32,602 nt of DNA, taken from the IMG/VR virus record IMGVR_UViG_3300048572_000010, positions 1 through 32,602 of that record, one strand, 5' to 3'. A model generated the notes under the pieces. It did no database searches. It had not been told where the DNA came from and was given only the letters and a program-made list of their open reading frames with translations. Position numbers and translations under genes: made by a program. The DNA comes from a virus (Duplodnaviria > Caudoviricetes). Below are positions 3,327-15,888 of this stretch, in pieces; position 1 is the first letter of the stretch; each line of letters starts with the position of its first letter.

Positions 3327-4604
3327 ATGGCATACATTGGCGCAGTCGCACCTGGTTACGACCCAACAAGAGCTAGTGTCCCTCAGTTAGATGCTGAGCG
3401 ATTTAGTGGTGATGCTTCGACTACAGCATTTACTCTTGCAAGACAGGTTGTATCTCCAACAGATATTGATGTTGTTGTTGAGAATGTTACACAAGAACCA
3501 ACCGTTTCTTATTCAGTCAATGGTTATACTTTAACTTTTACAGAAGCACCAGGATCAGGTACTAATAACATCTATGTTATTTACCGTGGTTCTGGCATAT
3601 CGAACTATGCATTTGTTCCAGATGGCTCAATCACATATGCAAAACTCGCAAACAATATCAAACAATTTACTGTTGATGCCGTTACTGCAAATGGTACAGG
3701 AACAACAGTAGAACTTACAGAAGCACCTGCATCTGCAAACTCTATTATAGTTTCAGTTGATGGTGTTATTCAAACTGCACCAACAAACTACACTTTGTCT
3801 GGTAGCACAATTACATTTACAGGCACACCAGATAACGGTGCGAATGTTGTAGTAAGACATATTGGATTTAGAACAACTTCAACTGTTACTGCATTACAGG
3901 CAAGTTCAGTTACCGCAACAGAAATCGCAGATGGTTCTATTACTAATGCGAAAATTGTTTCAGTTGCAAATACAAAGATTAGTGGTAATATTGTTAGCTC
4001 ACAGATTACATCGGTGGCTAATACTCAGATTACTGGTACAATCTCAGTAGCGAATACTGCAATCACTGGTAACATTATTAGCTCACAAATCACACCTAAT
4101 CCTACACTATATGGTAATGTTTCTGTTACTGGTGTTATTGGAGTAGGTGGTGCTACACCATCTACAAGTGGTTCTGGTATTACATTTCCTGCATCTCAAT
4201 CAGCATCATCCAATGCAAACACGCTTGATGATTATGAAGAAGGAACTTGGACACCAACTATTTCTGGTGGATATACAGGAGTAACTTATGCCGCTCAACA
4301 TGGATGGTATACAAAAGCTGGTAGATTTGTAAATATTTCTGCCCGAATTCAATTTAGTGGTACTGCAAATGCTAGTGCATTTTCAATTATAGGATTGCCA
4401 TTTTCACAGGGCAATATTGGTGGCGGTGCTTATGGCGGTGGTGGTATTCCATATTCAAGTCTTGCTGTAATTACAAACACTAGCCCATATTGCTCAGGAA
4501 ATACTGTTGAATACTACACAATGGGTACTGGTACACAAATAACTTCATCAGGAAATGCGTCTTCCAGCTGGATTAGTTTTGTAATCACTATTGCAACGGA
4601 CTAA
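3327..4604 (+). CDS. Tail fibre / receptor-binding protein (MAYIG N-terminus, two repeated beta modules, DDYEEGTWTP-type tip)
   Basis: Two ~65 aa repeats (FSGDASTTAFTL..V.VENVTQEP..Y..G.TLTFTEAP and ANGTGTTVEL..VSVDGVIQTAP..Y..G.TITFTGTP), a SVANT linker and a C-terminal NTLDDYEEGTWTP...GWYTKAGRFV domain. Confidence 0.75.
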   Translation: MAYIGAVAPGYDPTRASVPQLDAERFSGDASTTAFTLARQVVSPTDIDVVVENVTQEPTVSYSVNGYTLTFTEAPGSGTNNIYVIYRGSGISNYAFVPDGSITYAKLANNIKQFTVDAVTANGTGTTVELTEAPASANSIIVSVDGVIQTAPTNYTLSGSTITFTGTPDNGANVVVRHIGFRTTSTVTALQASSVTATEIADGSITNAKIVSVANTKISGNIVSSQITSVANTQITGTISVANTAITGNIISSQITPNPTLYGNVSVTGVIGVGGATPSTSGSGITFPASQSASSNANTLDDYEEGTWTPTISGGYTGVTYAAQHGWYTKAGRFVNISARIQFSGTANASAFSIIGLPFSQGNIGGGAYGGGGIPYSSLAVITNTSPYCSGNTVEYYTMGTGTQITSSGNASSSWISFVITIATD

Positions 4605-9221: not shown

Positions 9222-9499
9222 ACAAATATGATGCAATTTATAAAACTTACACTAATGTTGTTACTATAAATGGCAATGATGCTTTTGATGCTCAAGGCAA
9301 TCCCGTTATCTACAATGAAGCCACAGTTCAAGCCTACATTGATTCTCAAGCATACATAGAAAATCGTCAGCGTGAATATCCTTTACTCGCAGATTTGGCG
9401 GATGCACTATATCATCAATCTAAAGGTGACGAAACTAAGTTGACTGCATATCTCGCAAAATGTGAAGCAGTTAAGACTAAGTATCCTAAATCATCATAA
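9218..9499 (+). CDS. Small fibre partner / putative chaperone
   Basis: ATGA-coupled; paralog of 5806..6078 (shared DAFDAQGNPV.YNEATVQAYID). Confidence 0.65.
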   Translation: MNKYDAIYKTYTNVVTINGNDAFDAQGNPVIYNEATVQAYIDSQAYIENRQREYPLLADLADALYHQSKGDETKLTAYLAKCEAVKTKYPKSS

Positions 9500-9502
9500 A
9501 TA
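9495..9502 (+). promoter_or_regulatory. Late promoter-like CATAAATA
   Basis: One mismatch to the consensus; overlaps the upstream stop and precedes the endonuclease gene. Confidence 0.55.
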
Positions 9503-9524
9503 CAGTATAACATAGGAACACATT

Positions 9525-10169
9525 TTGTCTGTAGCACACCTTTATAAAATAACCAATAAACTAACTGATGAGTATTATATTGGTAAACATAATGGTTTGG
9601 ATCAAAAAAAGTCAAACGGATATTTATATTGGGGTTCTGGTGACAGAATCCGCAATCAAGTAAAGAAACATGGTGCTGATAATTTTAGATATGAAGTTTT
9701 AGTTATAAGCACACCAGAATACATCTATGAATTAGAAGGAAAAATGGTAACATTGAATTTGATTGAATCTGATAATAAGTGTTTAAATTTAAAGGGTGGT
9801 GGCTATGGCGCAAAATATACATCAGAACAAACTAAGAAAAAAATTATTTTAAAAAATTCTGGTAAAATAAGGTCCGAAGAAACCAAAGAAAAGATTAGAG
9901 TTGCAAGAGCAAAACAAGTTTTTACAAAAGAACAAAGAGATAGAGCTAATAAAACAATATCAACTTTAGTTTGGATGAATGATGGTGAAAAAAGTTACAG
10001 AATTAGACCAGAAAATATTCAAGTGTCTAAAGAAAAAGGTATGGTTGAAGGTCGAATAAAAGACTACATAAATACCGAATACAGAAACAAATTTAAAACA
10101 TATGCCAAAGAACAATGGCAAAAAGTTAAAGAAACCGGTCATATAGGCCATTTAATTAAGGTGAACTAA
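9525..10169 (+). CDS. Free-standing GIY-YIG homing endonuclease (Seg-like)
   Basis: HLYKITNKLTDEYYIGKH (GIY-YIG), YWGSG, catalytic-region ELE and CLNLKGGG, NUMOD3-like RSEETKEKIR repeats and a WMNDG motif. TTG start with AGGA SD. Confidence 0.85.
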   Translation: MSVAHLYKITNKLTDEYYIGKHNGLDQKKSNGYLYWGSGDRIRNQVKKHGADNFRYEVLVISTPEYIYELEGKMVTLNLIESDNKCLNLKGGGYGAKYTSEQTKKKIILKNSGKIRSEETKEKIRVARAKQVFTKEQRDRANKTISTLVWMNDGEKSYRIRPENIQVSKEKGMVEGRIKDYINTEYRNKFKTYAKEQWQKVKETGHIGHLIKVN

Positions 10170-10170
10170 A

Positions 10171-10593
10171 ATTTCTTATCTTGGCAACTCTCCGGTAAGT
10201 GGTGCAATACGAAGTCAGTTCTTTTCAGGAACAGGCTCAACCACAACTTTCAATTTAGCACATGAATATGGCAATGAAGCATCTGTATTAGTCTTTATCA
10301 CTGGTGTTAAACAGAAGACTGATTCATATGCGGTAATCAATGGTCAAATAGTTTTTACAACTGCACCGCCAAGTGCAACAGATAACATTGAAGTTATTTA
10401 CCTTGGTGGTTCTGTCGTAACCACACCTTATTTGGCAGCAGATACATATGGTATAGTCAGAATAAATGCTTCTACATTAACAACCAATGTCAGCATCACA
10501 ACAGGTTATAATGCGTCCTCTGCCGGCCCTTTAACAATCGCAAACAATGTTACTGTAACGGTGGCAAATAATTCCACTTGGACAATATTTTAA
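10171..10593 (+). CDS. Adaptor-like virion protein with apparent ATT start (missed by the ORF track), 140 aa
   Basis: Translates (I)SYLGNSPVSGAIRSQFFSGTGSTTTFNL...VFITGVKQ..Y....QIVFTTAP...SAGPLTIANNVTVTVANNSTWTIF*. The N-part is paralogous to 3327 (MAYIG.., FSGDASTTAFTL) and the C-part to 4894. In-frame TGA at 10162; SD TAAGGTGA 6 nt before the ATT. Confidence 0.85.
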   Translation: MSYLGNSPVSGAIRSQFFSGTGSTTTFNLAHEYGNEASVLVFITGVKQKTDSYAVINGQIVFTTAPPSATDNIEVIYLGGSVVTTPYLAADTYGIVRINASTLTTNVSITTGYNASSAGPLTIANNVTVTVANNSTWTIF

Positions 10594-12131: not shown

Positions 12132-12773
12132 ATGAACCACTATGTTTATTTAATTGAAAAGAAAAACACTTTATCCAATCAACAGAAATATTACATAGGT
12201 GTTCGTAGTTGTGAAGGATTGATAGGTAATGATTCTTATATGGGGTCATCTAAATACCTAACAGAAGAAGTTGAAACATTGGGTGTAGACCAGTTCAATA
12301 AGATTATATTGAAAAGGTTTAGTAATAGAATGGATGCTAATCTATATGAAATTGAGATGCATGATTTTTTTGATGTTGCCAATAATACCCTTTTTTTCAA
12401 TAGAGTAAAACAAAAAGACAGAGGTTTAGGTGTAGGACCAGGTGAATTAAATCCTTTTTATGGTAAAAAACATACATTAGAATCTCGCCGAAAAATGAGT
12501 GAGATTCTAAAGACGAAAGATTGTAGAGCTAAAACTACAAACAAAGGTAAGAAATTTCCTGAAGTTGGTAAAAAAATATCAGCAGCAAGAAAAGAATGGT
12601 TTAAAACAAATCCACATCCAATGTTGGGTGTGAAAAGAACAAAAGAAATGCAAATAAATAACTCGTTAGGTGCTTTAAATCAACAGAAACATGAATGTGT
12701 TTACTGTGGTGTTGTTACTATTGCTGGTAACATTAAAAGATGGCACAATGATAATTGCAAGGATAAAGGTTAA
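12132..12773 (+). CDS. Free-standing GIY-YIG homing endonuclease with NUMOD3 and C-terminal zinc-ribbon-like motif
   Basis: HYVYLIE...KYYIGVRSC, YMGSS, FFN, NPFYGKKHTLESRRKMS (NUMOD3) and CVYCG...RWHNDNCK. Confidence 0.85.
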   Translation: MNHYVYLIEKKNTLSNQQKYYIGVRSCEGLIGNDSYMGSSKYLTEEVETLGVDQFNKIILKRFSNRMDANLYEIEMHDFFDVANNTLFFNRVKQKDRGLGVGPGELNPFYGKKHTLESRRKMSEILKTKDCRAKTTNKGKKFPEVGKKISAARKEWFKTNPHPMLGVKRTKEMQINNSLGALNQQKHECVYCGVVTIAGNIKRWHNDNCKDKG

Positions 12774-13991: not shown

Positions 13992-15293
13992 GCCGGTTCA
14001 ATAACAGTAAGTTCGATTACACTAGATTCGGATAATAACTTCAGTATTAAGAGTAATACTGGTGCTACACTATTCTTTGCTAATACAAGTGGTGTTGATA
14101 TTGCCAACTCTATTGGTGCTACTGCAATTACAAGTGACAAAATTCTTTCTATTGCAAACACAAAGATTAGTGGCAACATCATTAGCTCACAGATTGCCTC
14201 TGTCAATGGTTCTGTAATCACAGCAAACACAATTGCTAACTCAGCAATTCAAACTGGTGCTGTTGAGAACTATATGAATGCTGCGGGTCTTGGTTTTGGT
14301 ATGAGGAACAGAATCATCAATGGTGCGATGGTAATTGACCAGCGTAATGCGGGGGCTAGTGTTACTAATACAACATCTAATTTGTATGTAACAGATAGAT
14401 GGAATATTTATGGACAACAAGCAAGTAAATTTACAGCACAGCAAAATGCTGGTTCTGTAACACCACCAACAGGATTTAAAAATTATTTAGGAATAACCTC
14501 ATCTTCTGCATATACAGTTCTTAGTGGTGATAACTTTAAAGTTTTGCAACCGATAGAAGGATATAACTTTGCGGATATGGGTTGGGGTGCGGCTGGTGCA
14601 TCATCAGTAACTTTATCCTTTTGGGTGCGCTCTAGTCTTACTGGAACATTTGGTGGTTCATTTACTAATTCATCATATAACCGCTCTTATCCATTCACTT
14701 ACACAATTAGTTCTGCAAATACTTGGGAACAAAAAACTGTAACTATTGCTGGCGATACTAGCGGAACATGGCTTACAACAAATGGCATTGGTGTTAATGT
14801 TATTTTTAGTATGGGAATGGGTACAGACCAAAGTGGGACTGCTGGTGCATGGGCTGGCGCAAACTATCAATCCGCAACTGGTGCAGTCTCTGTTGTAGGT
14901 ACTAATGGTGCTACTTGGTACATCACAGGCGTACAACTAGAAAAAGGCAGTACCGCAACATCTTTTGATTACAGACCTTATGGTACTGAGTTGGCTTTGT
15001 GTCAGAGGTATTATGAAATTATTGCGCCAGTTCAAGCTAGTTTTCTGATTTCAGTAAATGCAACTGCGTCAACGCAAGAATTTGAGTTTCTTATAAAGTA
15101 TTTGGTACTGAAAAGGGCTACGGCAACAGTAACACGGGTTGGAACTTGGACTGACTCTAACTCCACTGGTGTTGTGCCTTTAACATTTGGCACAGATTTA
15201 TTTTGTTTGGCATTGTTTTCTAGTGGTTCAGGAAGATGTTACACCTACAACACTGGTAGTGGTTCTTGTTTTACTGCTTCTGCGGAGTTATAA
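13989..15293 (+). CDS. Receptor-binding protein with carbohydrate-binding-like domain, paralog of 10602..11963
   Basis: [11 protein letters not shown]-terminus; shared [27 protein letters not shown] ... [30 protein letters not shown]; different tip; ends SAEL. Confidence 0.75.
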
Positions 15294-15295
15294 AA

Positions 15296-15448
15296 ATGTA
15301 TAAACTATTTAAAAATTCAGTAGGTTTAGAGTTTGTTCAGCGTTTGTCTGATGGTGCTTTCATACCTTTCGATAACGCTAACACAGACTACGCTGAATAT
15401 TTGAAGTGGGTGGCTGAAGGCAATACACCAGAACCTGCTGACGAATAA
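15296..15448 (+). CDS. Small fibre partner / putative chaperone (IPFD.ANTDY.EYL.W...GNTP.PAD)
   Basis: ATG at 15296, two bases after the upstream stop, with GGAG SD; preferred over the track start 15266. 50 aa. Confidence 0.7.
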
Positions 15449-15467: not shown

Positions 15468-15494
15468 AGCCCCACTTCGGTGGGGTTTTTTATT
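15468..15494 (+). terminator. Rho-independent terminator with C(UUCG)G tetraloop
   Basis: AGCCCCAC-TTCG-GTGGGGTT followed by a T tract; closes the RBP array. Confidence 0.9.
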
Positions 15495-15512
15495 GCCTTA
15501 GTTTCGGTAAGA

Positions 15513-15520
15513 CATAAATA
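15513..15520 (+). promoter_or_regulatory. Late promoter-like CATAAATA
   Basis: Just downstream of the terminator and upstream of the GAGGAG SD at 15543..15548. Confidence 0.65.
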
Positions 15521-15555
15521 GAACATAATATTAATATTACCCGAGGAGAACTAAA

Positions 15556-15888
15556 ATCGCAGGTTTTGCCGAAATCAATATTGAGCAGGGTGCGTCCTTC
15601 TCAACTGTAATCACCGTTAATGATTCTACCGGTGCTTTCACAAATCTTACAAGTTATACCGCTGCGGCTCAACTTCGTAAGTCATACTACTCATCGACCG
15701 CAAATAATTTTACTGTAACAGTCAGTAATGCGGCCAATGGAGAAATTACTATGGCTATGACAGCAGCCAATACTGCAAATCTAACTCCTGGTAGAATGTT
15801 ATATGACCTCCTTATTACCAGTCCAACAAGTGTTAAAACTAGGGTAGTTGAAGGCATTGCAACTATTCTTCCTTCTGTTACACGATAA
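15556..15888 (+). CDS. Small Ig-like/BppU-N-like virion protein with apparent ATC start (missed by the ORF track), 110 aa
   Basis: Translates (I)AGFAEINIEQGASFSTVITV...NLTSYTAAAQLRKSYYSS...GEITMAMTAANTANLTPGRMLYDLLI..KTRVVEGIATILPSVTR*, a sequence type familiar from T4-like phages. In-frame TAA at 15532; SD GAGGAG 7 nt before the ATC; TAATG overlap with the next gene. Confidence 0.85.
   Translation: MAGFAEINIEQGASFSTVITVNDSTGAFTNLTSYTAAAQLRKSYYSSTANNFTVTVSNAANGEITMAMTAANTANLTPGRMLYDLLITSPTSVKTRVVEGIATILPSVTR

What the first reader, a model, noticed from the sequence alone, without database searches (positions are those of the whole stretch)
10157..10593. Intact virion gene that can only start at ATT, behind a GGTGAACTAAA context
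Seen: a 140-codon frame fills the gap between the endonuclease and the next fibre gene. It is bounded upstream by an in-frame TGA (10162), and its first ATG/GTG/TTG is at 10432, deep inside the frame. Its in-window paralog (3327) starts MAYIG, and ATT-TCT-TAT-CTT-GGC puts ATT exactly where the Met belongs, 6 nt after a TAAGGTGA SD. Known: AUU initiation is rare (E. coli infC, pcnB) and is restrained by IF3. Inference: a real non-AUG start.
Basis: partly seen in the sequence, partly recalled or inferred. Interest (0 to 1): 0.7.

Follow-up and report, generated by a model that had tools for sequence, protein, structure and literature searches.

The report
Selfish nuclease supplies rare ATT start
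In an uncultured freshwater T4-like phage, a nuclease gene sits directly after the start codon that nuclease-free relatives use for a small tail-protein-like gene, and its tail end carries a strong ribosome-binding site and an ATT codon where that gene most likely now begins, so mobile nucleases are likely a recurring source of rare start codons in these phages.

Summary
Confirmed. ATT (10171) is the only usable start of an intact 140-codon gene. It is not an assembly error or decay: of 90 distinct alleles, 18 have ATT, 9 ATC, 32 TTG, 9 GTG and 22 ATG at that position, none has a stop, and the N-terminal half is under purifying selection.

The upstream GIY-YIG endonuclease gene sits right after the TTG start used by empty alleles, taking their promoter, SD and start codon. 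Its 3' end supplies a promoter-like TAAATA, a strong SD and the ATT. Relatives show empty, occupied and scar alleles. ATG alleles are nearly all SD-less and probably leaderless. In the next gene, 48 of 48 insert-free alleles start ATG, against 8 of 15 with an insert.

The GGTGAACTAAA context is an ordinary strong ribosome-binding site, not an AUU signal. A second window gene (15556) starts at ATC with no endonuclease seen beside it. Initiation, endonuclease activity and IF3 control are untested. This scan noted the same kind of arrangement earlier on other phage DNA; my literature searches did not find it in print.

The parts
9497..9527 (+). Former leader of the tail gene: TAAATA late-promoter-like hexamer (9497-9502), AGGA SD (9514-9517) and TTG (9525-9527), now heading the endonuclease
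   Evidence: Nearly identical up to and including TTG in four endonuclease-free alleles, which continue directly into the tail gene. Promoter function is inferred from likeness to the T4 late promoter TATAAAT (PMC9004378 passage).
9525..10169 (+). Free-standing GIY-YIG (seg-like) homing endonuclease gene, 214 aa, inserted right after the start codon
   Evidence: PHROG 314 E 1.8e-26; Pfam SegE_GIY-YIG and NUMOD3 weak, below cut-off; LYKI..YYIG motif aligned across relatives; present at this site in 11 of 90 alleles.
10069..10074 (+). TAAATA inside the endonuclease coding region, 96 nt before the ATT: candidate replacement late promoter
   Evidence: Found 51-96 nt before the start in 10 of 11 endonuclease-bearing alleles; about 0.27 expected per 100 nt by composition; it may also be held by the protein (YIN).
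10158..10170 (+). 13-nt cassette AAGGTGAACTAAA: strong SD, endonuclease stop TAA (10167-10169) and A-rich spacer
   Evidence: In 25 of 27 ATT/ATC alleles and 0 of 62 others on the tree; SD -8.5 kcal/mol; generic strong RBS before ATG in other phages.
10171..10173 (+). ATT start codon (inferred)
   Evidence: Met position of the family: ATG 22, TTG 32, GTG 9, ATT 18, ATC 9 of 90 alleles.
10171..10593 (+). Intact 140-codon tail-fibre-associated gene (virion location inferred)
   Evidence: PHROG 5342 tail fibre E 1.4e-12 over residues 58-139; Pfam Phage_T7_tail N-terminal domain weak over 19-75; Atlas feature hit 0.95 to a putative tail fibre cluster; dN/dS 0.06-0.20 over codons 2-66.
15515..15888 (+). 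Second near-cognate-start gene: TAAATA (15515-15520), GAGGAG SD (15543-15548), ATC start 15556, 110 codons, LtfC-like tail-fibre assembly protein
   Evidence: Family starts: ATG 31, ATC 10, TTG 10, GTG 7, ATA 2 of 60 distinct alleles.
3327..4604 (+). Paralog starting ATG here; three related alleles elsewhere start ATT behind the same or a one-letter-different cassette
   Evidence: L303, L325; G013. The direct search gave ATG 15, GTG 2 of 17.

Best explanation
The gene most likely starts at ATT because a likely mobile GIY-YIG endonuclease gene sits directly after the TTG that empty alleles carry at the start position, and its last 13 nucleotides form a strong Shine-Dalgarno-type site in front of an in-frame ATT. 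SHOWN: the 5' junction falls right after TTG; the gene body is intact and under purifying selection; empty, occupied and scar-like alleles all exist; near-cognate starts go with inserts in a second gene. INFERRED: the endonuclease uses the gene's old late promoter, SD and start. The host initiator tRNA reads AUU as Met at low efficiency, helped by the strong SD, on transcripts from the old promoter (where ribosomes ending the endonuclease 1 nt before the ATT can re-initiate) or from the TAAATA inside the endonuclease. An insertion that steals the start survives only if its tail offers some in-frame start; near-cognate codons outnumber ATG and need a strong SD. Deletion of the endonuclease leaves the cassette behind as 7-10-codon mini-ORFs or hybrid leaders. 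ATT/ATC then persists probably because this minor virion protein is needed in small amounts and strong SD plus ATG would overshoot.
For: Family table (127 loci, 122 with the N-terminus, 90 distinct): 20 of 22 ATG alleles have TAAATA within 8 nt and 1 of 22 has SD <= -4; 0 of 68 non-ATG alleles have TAAATA within 8 nt and 64 of 68 have SD <= -4; mean SD ATT -8.3, ATC -8.5, TTG -4.4. Junctions. Endonuclease-bearing alleles start ATT 8, TTG 2, GTG 1 and never ATG (0 of 11); all 13 mini-ORF alleles stop 4 nt before or overlap the start, several with endonuclease-like tails such as HLIKVN and KVQS. Four ATT alleles share the first 18 nt of a TTG-type leader and then switch to a strong-SD ATT leader. 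The cassette needs at least 18 changes on an 89-allele tree, as expected for lateral spread or repeated gain and loss. Independent test on the next gene family (10602): 48 of 48 insert-free alleles start ATG, 7 of 15 with a >400-nt insert do not (Fisher p 1.2e-5; 7 of 13 after dropping two doubtful rows). Among 783 voted start calls in 22 contigs, the 7 ATT/ATC calls fall in three late-gene families. AUU/AUC initiate at 1-2% of AUG in E. coli (10.1101/063800, passages) and non-canonical starts at about 10% behind extended SDs in S. aureus (PMC13009471 section 10).
Against: No direct proof of initiation, transcription start or endonuclease activity. The second gene (15556) uses ATC/ATA/TTG/GTG in 29 of 60 alleles, none of 60 has a long ORF ending at its start, and its SD is equally strong for ATG (-7.6) and ATC (-7.9); so endonucleases are not shown to be the only source and SD compensation is not general. 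13 of 27 ATT/ATC alleles have no upstream ORF, so coupling is not required; in 3 of 13 mini-ORFs the ATG lies 1 nt after TAAATA, probably outside the transcript. 8 of 15 insert alleles in the 10602 family, and the gene behind the window's second endonuclease (12776), keep ATG. The tree is unrooted, short (417 columns), 23 of 86 inner branches are weak, and recombination could inflate the count of changes; no shuffle or AU test was run. Alleles are related, so the Fisher test overstates independence. SD energies use an E. coli-type anti-SD (recalled) because the host is unknown.
Confidence: 0.72

Rival explanations
1. Dosage tuning without the endonuclease: these minor late virion genes drift between weak-start layouts (leaderless ATG, SD+TTG/GTG, strong SD+ATT/ATC) by point change and recombination, and the endonuclease merely picked up an existing ATT leader as its tail.
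For: The 15556 family has 29 of 60 non-ATG alleles and no abutting long ORF. ATT/ATC calls are confined to three late families. SD plus ATG is nearly absent in the 10171 family. Leaderless-like and ATG go together in about 9 of 9 independent pairs.
Against: The occupied allele begins with the TTG-type leader, not the ATT-type one; hybrid leaders and mini-ORFs look like deletion products; the 10602 family loses ATG only with an insert.
Confidence: 0.15
2. Self-immunity: the endonuclease cuts the empty allele at a site that includes the NTG start codon, and the ATT/ATC it carries is kept because it lacks the G needed for cleavage.
For: 0 of 11 occupied alleles have ATG; the cassette is followed only by ATT or ATC in 22 of 22 distinct occurrences in the fetched relatives and none of the 66 cassette+ATG hits belongs to this family. 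GIY-YIG enzymes such as I-TevI need a G at the cut site (recalled).
Against: The insertion itself splits any site spanning the junction. 3 of 11 occupied alleles keep the G (TTG, GTG). ATT/ATC persists in 19 alleles without the endonuclease. T4 free-standing endonucleases cut hundreds to thousands of bases from their own gene (PMC2988022 passages). This can hold together with the best explanation.
Confidence: 0.2
3. Pseudogene or assembly error, with at most a 53-aa product from TTG 10432.
For: No canonical start for 87 codons; a database record holds the sequence only from residue 29.
Against: 27 ATT/ATC alleles across the tree, no stop in any of 90, dN/dS 0.06-0.20 over codons 2-66 in all 8 of 19 comparisons where dS is not saturated; TTG 10432 has no SD and is TTG in only 12 of 26 ATT/ATC alleles; contigs of other runs agree.
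Confidence: 0.02
4. The gene is made as a fusion by a +1 frameshift at the endonuclease stop (AAC TAA A), with the SD acting as in prfB.
For: An SD-like sequence lies just before the stop and the frames differ by +1.
Against: 19 of 27 ATT/ATC alleles have no endonuclease and 13 have no upstream ORF; the position holds only ATG or near-cognate codons in 90 alleles, which a fusion would not require.
Confidence: 0.03
5. The AUU start is an IF3 sensor, as in infC, tying this virion protein to the host's IF3 level.
For: Leaderless initiation, non-canonical starts and SD-less re-initiation are all inhibited by raised IF3 (PMC2268962 section 16), and 47 of 90 alleles are leaderless-like ATG or ATT/ATC.
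Against: 41 of 90 alleles use TTG/GTG, which count as canonical starts; no IF3 homologue in 5 related genomes; no tRNA-Ile with initiator marks in the 4 found; no reason is known for feedback.
Confidence: 0.08

Closest known systems
AUU starts of E. coli infC and pcnB
   Same: ATT at the start position behind a strong SD; pcnB has GAGGTG then 4 nt then ATT, computed SD -9.8. 10.1101/063800 (passages) names these two as the only confirmed non-canonical starts in E. coli.
   Different: Here a phage structural-type gene; the codon varies among ATG, GTG, TTG, ATT, ATC within one family; it is tied to a mobile element; no feedback loop is known.
Free-standing seg (GIY-YIG) homing endonucleases of T4 (segA-G)
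   Same: GIY-YIG gene without an intron, optional among relatives, using an upstream host promoter and carrying promoter-like sequence for the downstream gene inside its coding region, as described for segG/gene 32, segA, segE, mobB, mobC (PMC2988022 passages).
   Different: The passages I saw describe borrowed or embedded promoters and overlaps with the upstream gene, not insertion right after a host start codon with a replacement SD and near-cognate start for the downstream gene.
S. aureus cvfC1 (AUU), ccpN, infC, citZ (AUA) starts with extended SD
   Same: Weak codon paired with a strong SD; about 10% of AUG output (PMC13009471 section 10).
   Different: Chromosomal, conserved and partly medium-responsive; no endonuclease.
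M13 gene V-gene VII translational coupling / re-initiation
   Same: A stop lies next to the downstream start in all occupied and mini-ORF alleles; re-initiation needs initiator tRNA and IF2 (PMC2268962 abstract).
   Different: Here a strong SD is present and 13 ATT/ATC alleles lack any upstream ORF, so coupling is optional.
T4 gene 26 internal AUU start (recalled; not found by search)
   Same: AUU initiation in a T4-type late gene.
   Different: As recalled, an internal start giving a shorter second product, not the sole start.

Membership tests
AUU-initiated genes (infC/pcnB type) | ATT at the conserved Met position with no alternative canonical start | tested here: met
AUU-initiated genes (infC/pcnB type) | Strong SD at working distance | tested here: met
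   -8.5 kcal/mol, third of 36 window genes; E. coli-type anti-SD assumed
AUU-initiated genes (infC/pcnB type) | Coding region downstream of ATT is under selection as protein | tested here: met
   dN/dS 0.06-0.20 in 8 of 19 computable pairs; no stops in 90 alleles
AUU-initiated genes (infC/pcnB type) | fMet initiation at the AUU shown by N-terminal sequence or ribosome footprint | not testable with these tools
   Only contigs available
AUU-initiated genes (infC/pcnB type) | Output set by IF3 level | not testable with these tools
   Literature only; no phage IF3 in 5 genomes
Free-standing seg-type GIY-YIG homing endonuclease | N-terminal GIY-YIG domain with DNA-binding repeats | tested here: met
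   PHROG 314 E 1.8e-26; motif aligned; the Pfam hits are below their cut-offs
Free-standing seg-type GIY-YIG homing endonuclease | Not inside an intron or intein | tested here: met
   The insert (about 9528-10173) is the ORF plus 4 nt, leaving no room for an intron core; no Rfam search was run
Free-standing seg-type GIY-YIG homing endonuclease | Optional presence at a fixed site among relatives | tested here: met
   11 of 90 alleles occupied, scattered on the tree
Free-standing seg-type GIY-YIG homing endonuclease | Site-specific cleavage of the empty allele and biased inheritance | not testable with these tools
   Needs in vitro cleavage or mixed infection
Leaderless mRNA (ATG alleles) | Transcript begins at or next to the AUG, no SD | tested here: inconclusive
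   No SD and TAAATA 4-7 nt upstream in 20 of 22; spacing across genes is bimodal, 4-7 and about 19-27 nt; start site not mapped
Tail fibre / virion structural protein | Homology to tail-fibre families and location in the tail-fibre cluster | tested here: inconclusive
   PHROG 5342 partial match, Pfam below cut-off, Atlas 0.95; no model obtained; virion location untested

The most novel reading that the evidence does not exclude
A group of phage homing endonucleases targets the start codons of late virion genes: each cuts the empty allele at the start, takes over its promoter and start codon, and installs a portable promoter-SD-AUU cassette whose weak codon both rescues the host gene and makes the occupied allele uncuttable. 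Repeated invasion and deletion rewrites leaderless ATG genes into SD-led near-cognate genes, making these endonucleases a main generator of non-AUG starts in T4-like phages.
Probability: 0.3. Interest if true: 0.8.

Novelty: new variant of a known kind. Interest (0 to 1): 0.6.

Why it matters
Confirmed AUU starts are counted in single digits per bacterial genome, and gene callers miss them: this gene is held truncated in a protein database and the 15556 gene is absent from an ATG/GTG/TTG ORF list. The family gives a natural allele series for one protein (leaderless ATG, SD+TTG/GTG, strong SD+ATT/ATC, with or without an upstream stop) that makes the trade-off between SD strength, start codon, coupling and IF3 directly testable. 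It also suggests a way for a free-standing endonuclease to make itself hard to delete: the host gene depends on its last 13 nucleotides.

Tried and rejected
AUU-specific motif: rejected; the same 13-mer precedes ATG at 66 places, 59 with frames of 50+ codons. Of 98 cassette+ATT/ATC hits, 78 have short frames (chance) and 20 long: 10 this family, 2 the paralog, 1 gp46-like, 1 terminase-like, 5 copies of one unannotated family, 1 probable chance. Phage-encoded special initiator tRNA: related genomes carry near-full tRNA sets, but the 4 tRNA-Ile(GAT) lack a 1-72 mismatch and a GGG anticodon stem (marks recalled, positions approximate). Phage IF3: 0 of 5 genomes. RNA structure at the start: none beyond shuffles (z 0.73, 1.95, 0.22). 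Stop readthrough: three in-frame stops upstream. Named phages: no match to the 140-aa protein; the 110-aa protein and the sheath match Methylophilales phage Melnitz, Pelagibacter phages and Stenotrophomonas phage DLP_6 at under 60%, so the host stays unknown. The RNA-library contigs (X19) cannot show a start or strand and were not used as evidence of expression; low-share runs were not used. The structure prediction never returned, so the fold is open. The genome-wide vote did not list the window's own 15556 gene, so it under-counts. Literature: searches found no paper on endonucleases supplying non-AUG starts; the library lacks most subscription papers, and no supplements were read. PMC2701633 and PMC3014915 (no AUU passage) gave nothing relevant.

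Full report
Setting. The window is the whole 32.6-kb record: the tail-fibre, neck, terminase, sheath, tube and portal region of a T4-like phage held in freshwater metagenomes. The nearest named phages by tail sheath are Pelagibacter phage Mosig, Stenotrophomonas phage DLP_6 and Methylophilales phage Melnitz at 52-57%. The host is unknown.

The frame 10171-10593 encodes 140 residues, has TAG, TAA and TGA in frame just upstream, and its first canonical codon is TTG at codon 88, which has no SD (-1.4 kcal/mol against -8.5 for the ATT). Contigs of two DNA runs cover the ATT without a difference; one may be the source of this DNA. The paralog at 3327 is homologous.

The family settles the start. 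Searches of IMG/VR and JGI metagenomes (57 viral loci, of which 10 partial ones were left out, and the best 80 of 225 metagenome hits) gave 127 loci, 122 with the N-terminus, 90 distinct. At the Met position they have TTG 32, ATG 22, ATT 18, ATC 9, GTG 9 and nothing else. None has a stop, and over codons 2-66 dN/dS between the window and other ATT/ATC alleles is 0.06-0.20 in the 8 of 19 pairs where dS is not saturated. A pseudogene, an assembly error or a frameshift fusion does not fit this.

Two layouts. 20 of 22 ATG alleles have TAAATA 4-7 nt before the ATG and only 1 has an SD of -4 or stronger; 0 of 68 non-ATG alleles have TAAATA that close and 64 have such an SD, strongest for ATT/ATC (mean -8.3 and -8.5; TTG -4.4). 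TAAATA resembles the T4 late promoter TATAAAT (PMC9004378, passage); across 22 contigs its distance to starts is bimodal, 4-7 and about 19-27 nt. I infer leaderless ATG messages versus SD-led weak codons; transcript starts were not mapped. On the tree the pairings hold in about 9 of 9 and 11 of 13 independent pairs with none opposite, but SD and codon travel in one cassette, so this does not show separate co-evolution.

The endonuclease. ORF 9525-10169 is a GIY-YIG homing endonuclease. Its leader and TTG match, up to and including the TTG, the leader of four empty alleles that run straight on into the tail gene. So the insert lies right after the start codon (within one codon). Its last codons contain the SD, its stop ends 1 nt before the ATT, and a TAAATA lies 96 nt upstream inside it, as in 10 of 11 occupied alleles (it could also be held by the protein sequence). 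Occupied alleles start ATT 8, TTG 2, GTG 1 and never ATG. Thirteen alleles have a 7-10-codon mini-ORF from an ATG just behind TAAATA, all stopping at -4 or overlapping the start, several ending like endonucleases (HLIKVN, KVQS). Four ATT alleles keep the first 18 nt of a TTG-type leader and then switch. I read these as deletion scars (inference). The 13-nt cassette is in 25 of 27 ATT/ATC alleles and 0 of 62 others and needs at least 18 changes on the 89-allele tree (unrooted, 23 of 86 branches weak, no shuffle test).

Independent test. For the next gene (10602 family), 48 of 48 distinct alleles directly behind the tail gene start ATG, whereas 7 of 15 with a >400-nt insert start GTG or TTG (p 1.2e-5; 8 loci lacked the gene within reach; two of the 15, both ATG, are doubtful, one being another family). 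Most of these inserts are endonucleases by profile search. The same ATT cassette heads the 3327 paralog in L303, behind a 208-codon frame with an endonuclease-like tail, and in L325, and a one-letter variant in G013.

Results against a single-cause reading. A second window gene, 15556-15888 (LtfC-like tail-fibre assembly protein), starts at ATC behind GAGGAGAACTAAA. Its family has ATG 31, ATC 10, TTG 10, GTG 7, ATA 2 of 60 distinct alleles, SD strength does not differ by codon, and no allele has a long ORF ending at the start, although two ATC alleles have short frames stopping at -4. The window's second endonuclease (12132) leaves an ATG on gene 12776. Thirteen ATT/ATC alleles have no upstream ORF, so coupling is optional. 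Among 783 voted start calls (ATG 640, shifted 98, GTG 19, TTG 19, ATT 5, ATC 2) the ATT/ATC calls fall in only three late families, which points to gene-specific tolerance of low output as well as to endonuclease traffic.

The context is not special. AAGGTGAACTAAA precedes ATG at 66 places in IMG/VR, 59 with frames of 50 codons or more, in unrelated phages; several look like capsid or sheath starts (recalled likeness, not tested) and none belongs to this family. It is a strong general ribosome-binding site. It also precedes ATC at the N-terminus of a gp46-like gene and of a terminase-like gene. No special structure, initiator-like tRNA-Ile or phage IF3 was found.

Mechanism. Most likely (0.72): insertion after the start codon, rescue by a tail-borne strong SD plus near-cognate codon, low-level initiation by the host initiator tRNA, scars after deletion, and retention of the weak codon because a minor virion protein needs little output. 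Known efficiencies are 1-2% of AUG in E. coli (10.1101/063800, passages) and about 10% behind extended SDs in S. aureus (PMC13009471, abstract and section 10). That initiation is at ATT at all I put near 0.95. Rivals: dosage tuning alone (0.15), self-immunity of the cut site (0.2, compatible with the main reading), IF3 sensing (0.08; PMC2268962 abstract and section 16), fusion (0.03), pseudogene (0.02).

Comparison and novelty. It works like infC/pcnB at the ribosome and like T4 seg genes as a mobile element; borrowed and embedded promoters are described for T4 (PMC2988022, passages). Insertion after the start codon with a replacement SD and AUU was not found in seven searches. Earlier notes of this scan describe the same kind of arrangement in other phages; I had reached the reading before seeing them, they are unchecked AI notes, and one is marked as partly fallen. 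What this case adds is the allele series and the 48-of-48 control. Verdict: new variant of a known kind, interest 0.6.

Noticed in passing
window 15556-15888: Second gene with a near-cognate start (ATC) behind a strong SD; missed by ATG/GTG/TTG ORF lists; 29 of 60 family alleles are non-ATG.
   Followed up: yes
window 12132-12773: Second GIY-YIG/NUMOD3 endonuclease, starting at an SD-less ATG 7 nt after TAAATA; its tail supplies an SD and ATG for gene 12776, whose empty relatives have a TAAATA-led 23-nt leader.
   Followed up: partly
window 12132, 19261, 24739 and 71 of 640 ATG calls in 22 contigs: Many late genes have ATG within 8 nt of TAAATA and little SD, suggesting widespread leaderless late transcripts in this phage group.
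   Followed up: partly
L311:714 (IMG/VR 3300028045_001047): gp46/SbcC-like gene whose profile match begins at residue 2 behind AAGGTGAACTAAA-ATC: likely ATC start in a non-virion gene.
   Followed up: partly
L324:473; L254 and four copies: Terminase-like gene and an unannotated long ORF (the latter behind a 202-codon frame stopping at -4) that may start at ATC/ATT behind the same 13-mer in unrelated phages.
   Followed up: partly
L005, L009, L019, L020, L025, L052, L055, L190, L193, L240 and others, just after the 140-codon gene: Several different endonucleases occupy the junction after this gene, many starting at an ATG overlapping its stop: both ends of the gene are insertion hot spots.
   Followed up: partly
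G010, G021, G009, G020: Related genomes carry 14-28 tRNA types, several CAT-anticodon tRNAs each, one with a C1-A72-like mismatch; G010 has a doubtful tRNA-Ile(TAT) call.
   Followed up: partly
G002, G010, G011, G019, G020, G021: One conserved gene (N-terminus like VSDLILHKKNEAYI, uvsW-like by recall) starts GTG in 6 of 6 genomes.
   Followed up: no
window 15470-15495: Short GC-rich hairpin followed by a T run between gene 15266-15448 and the 15515 promoter-like site: likely intrinsic terminator.
   Followed up: no
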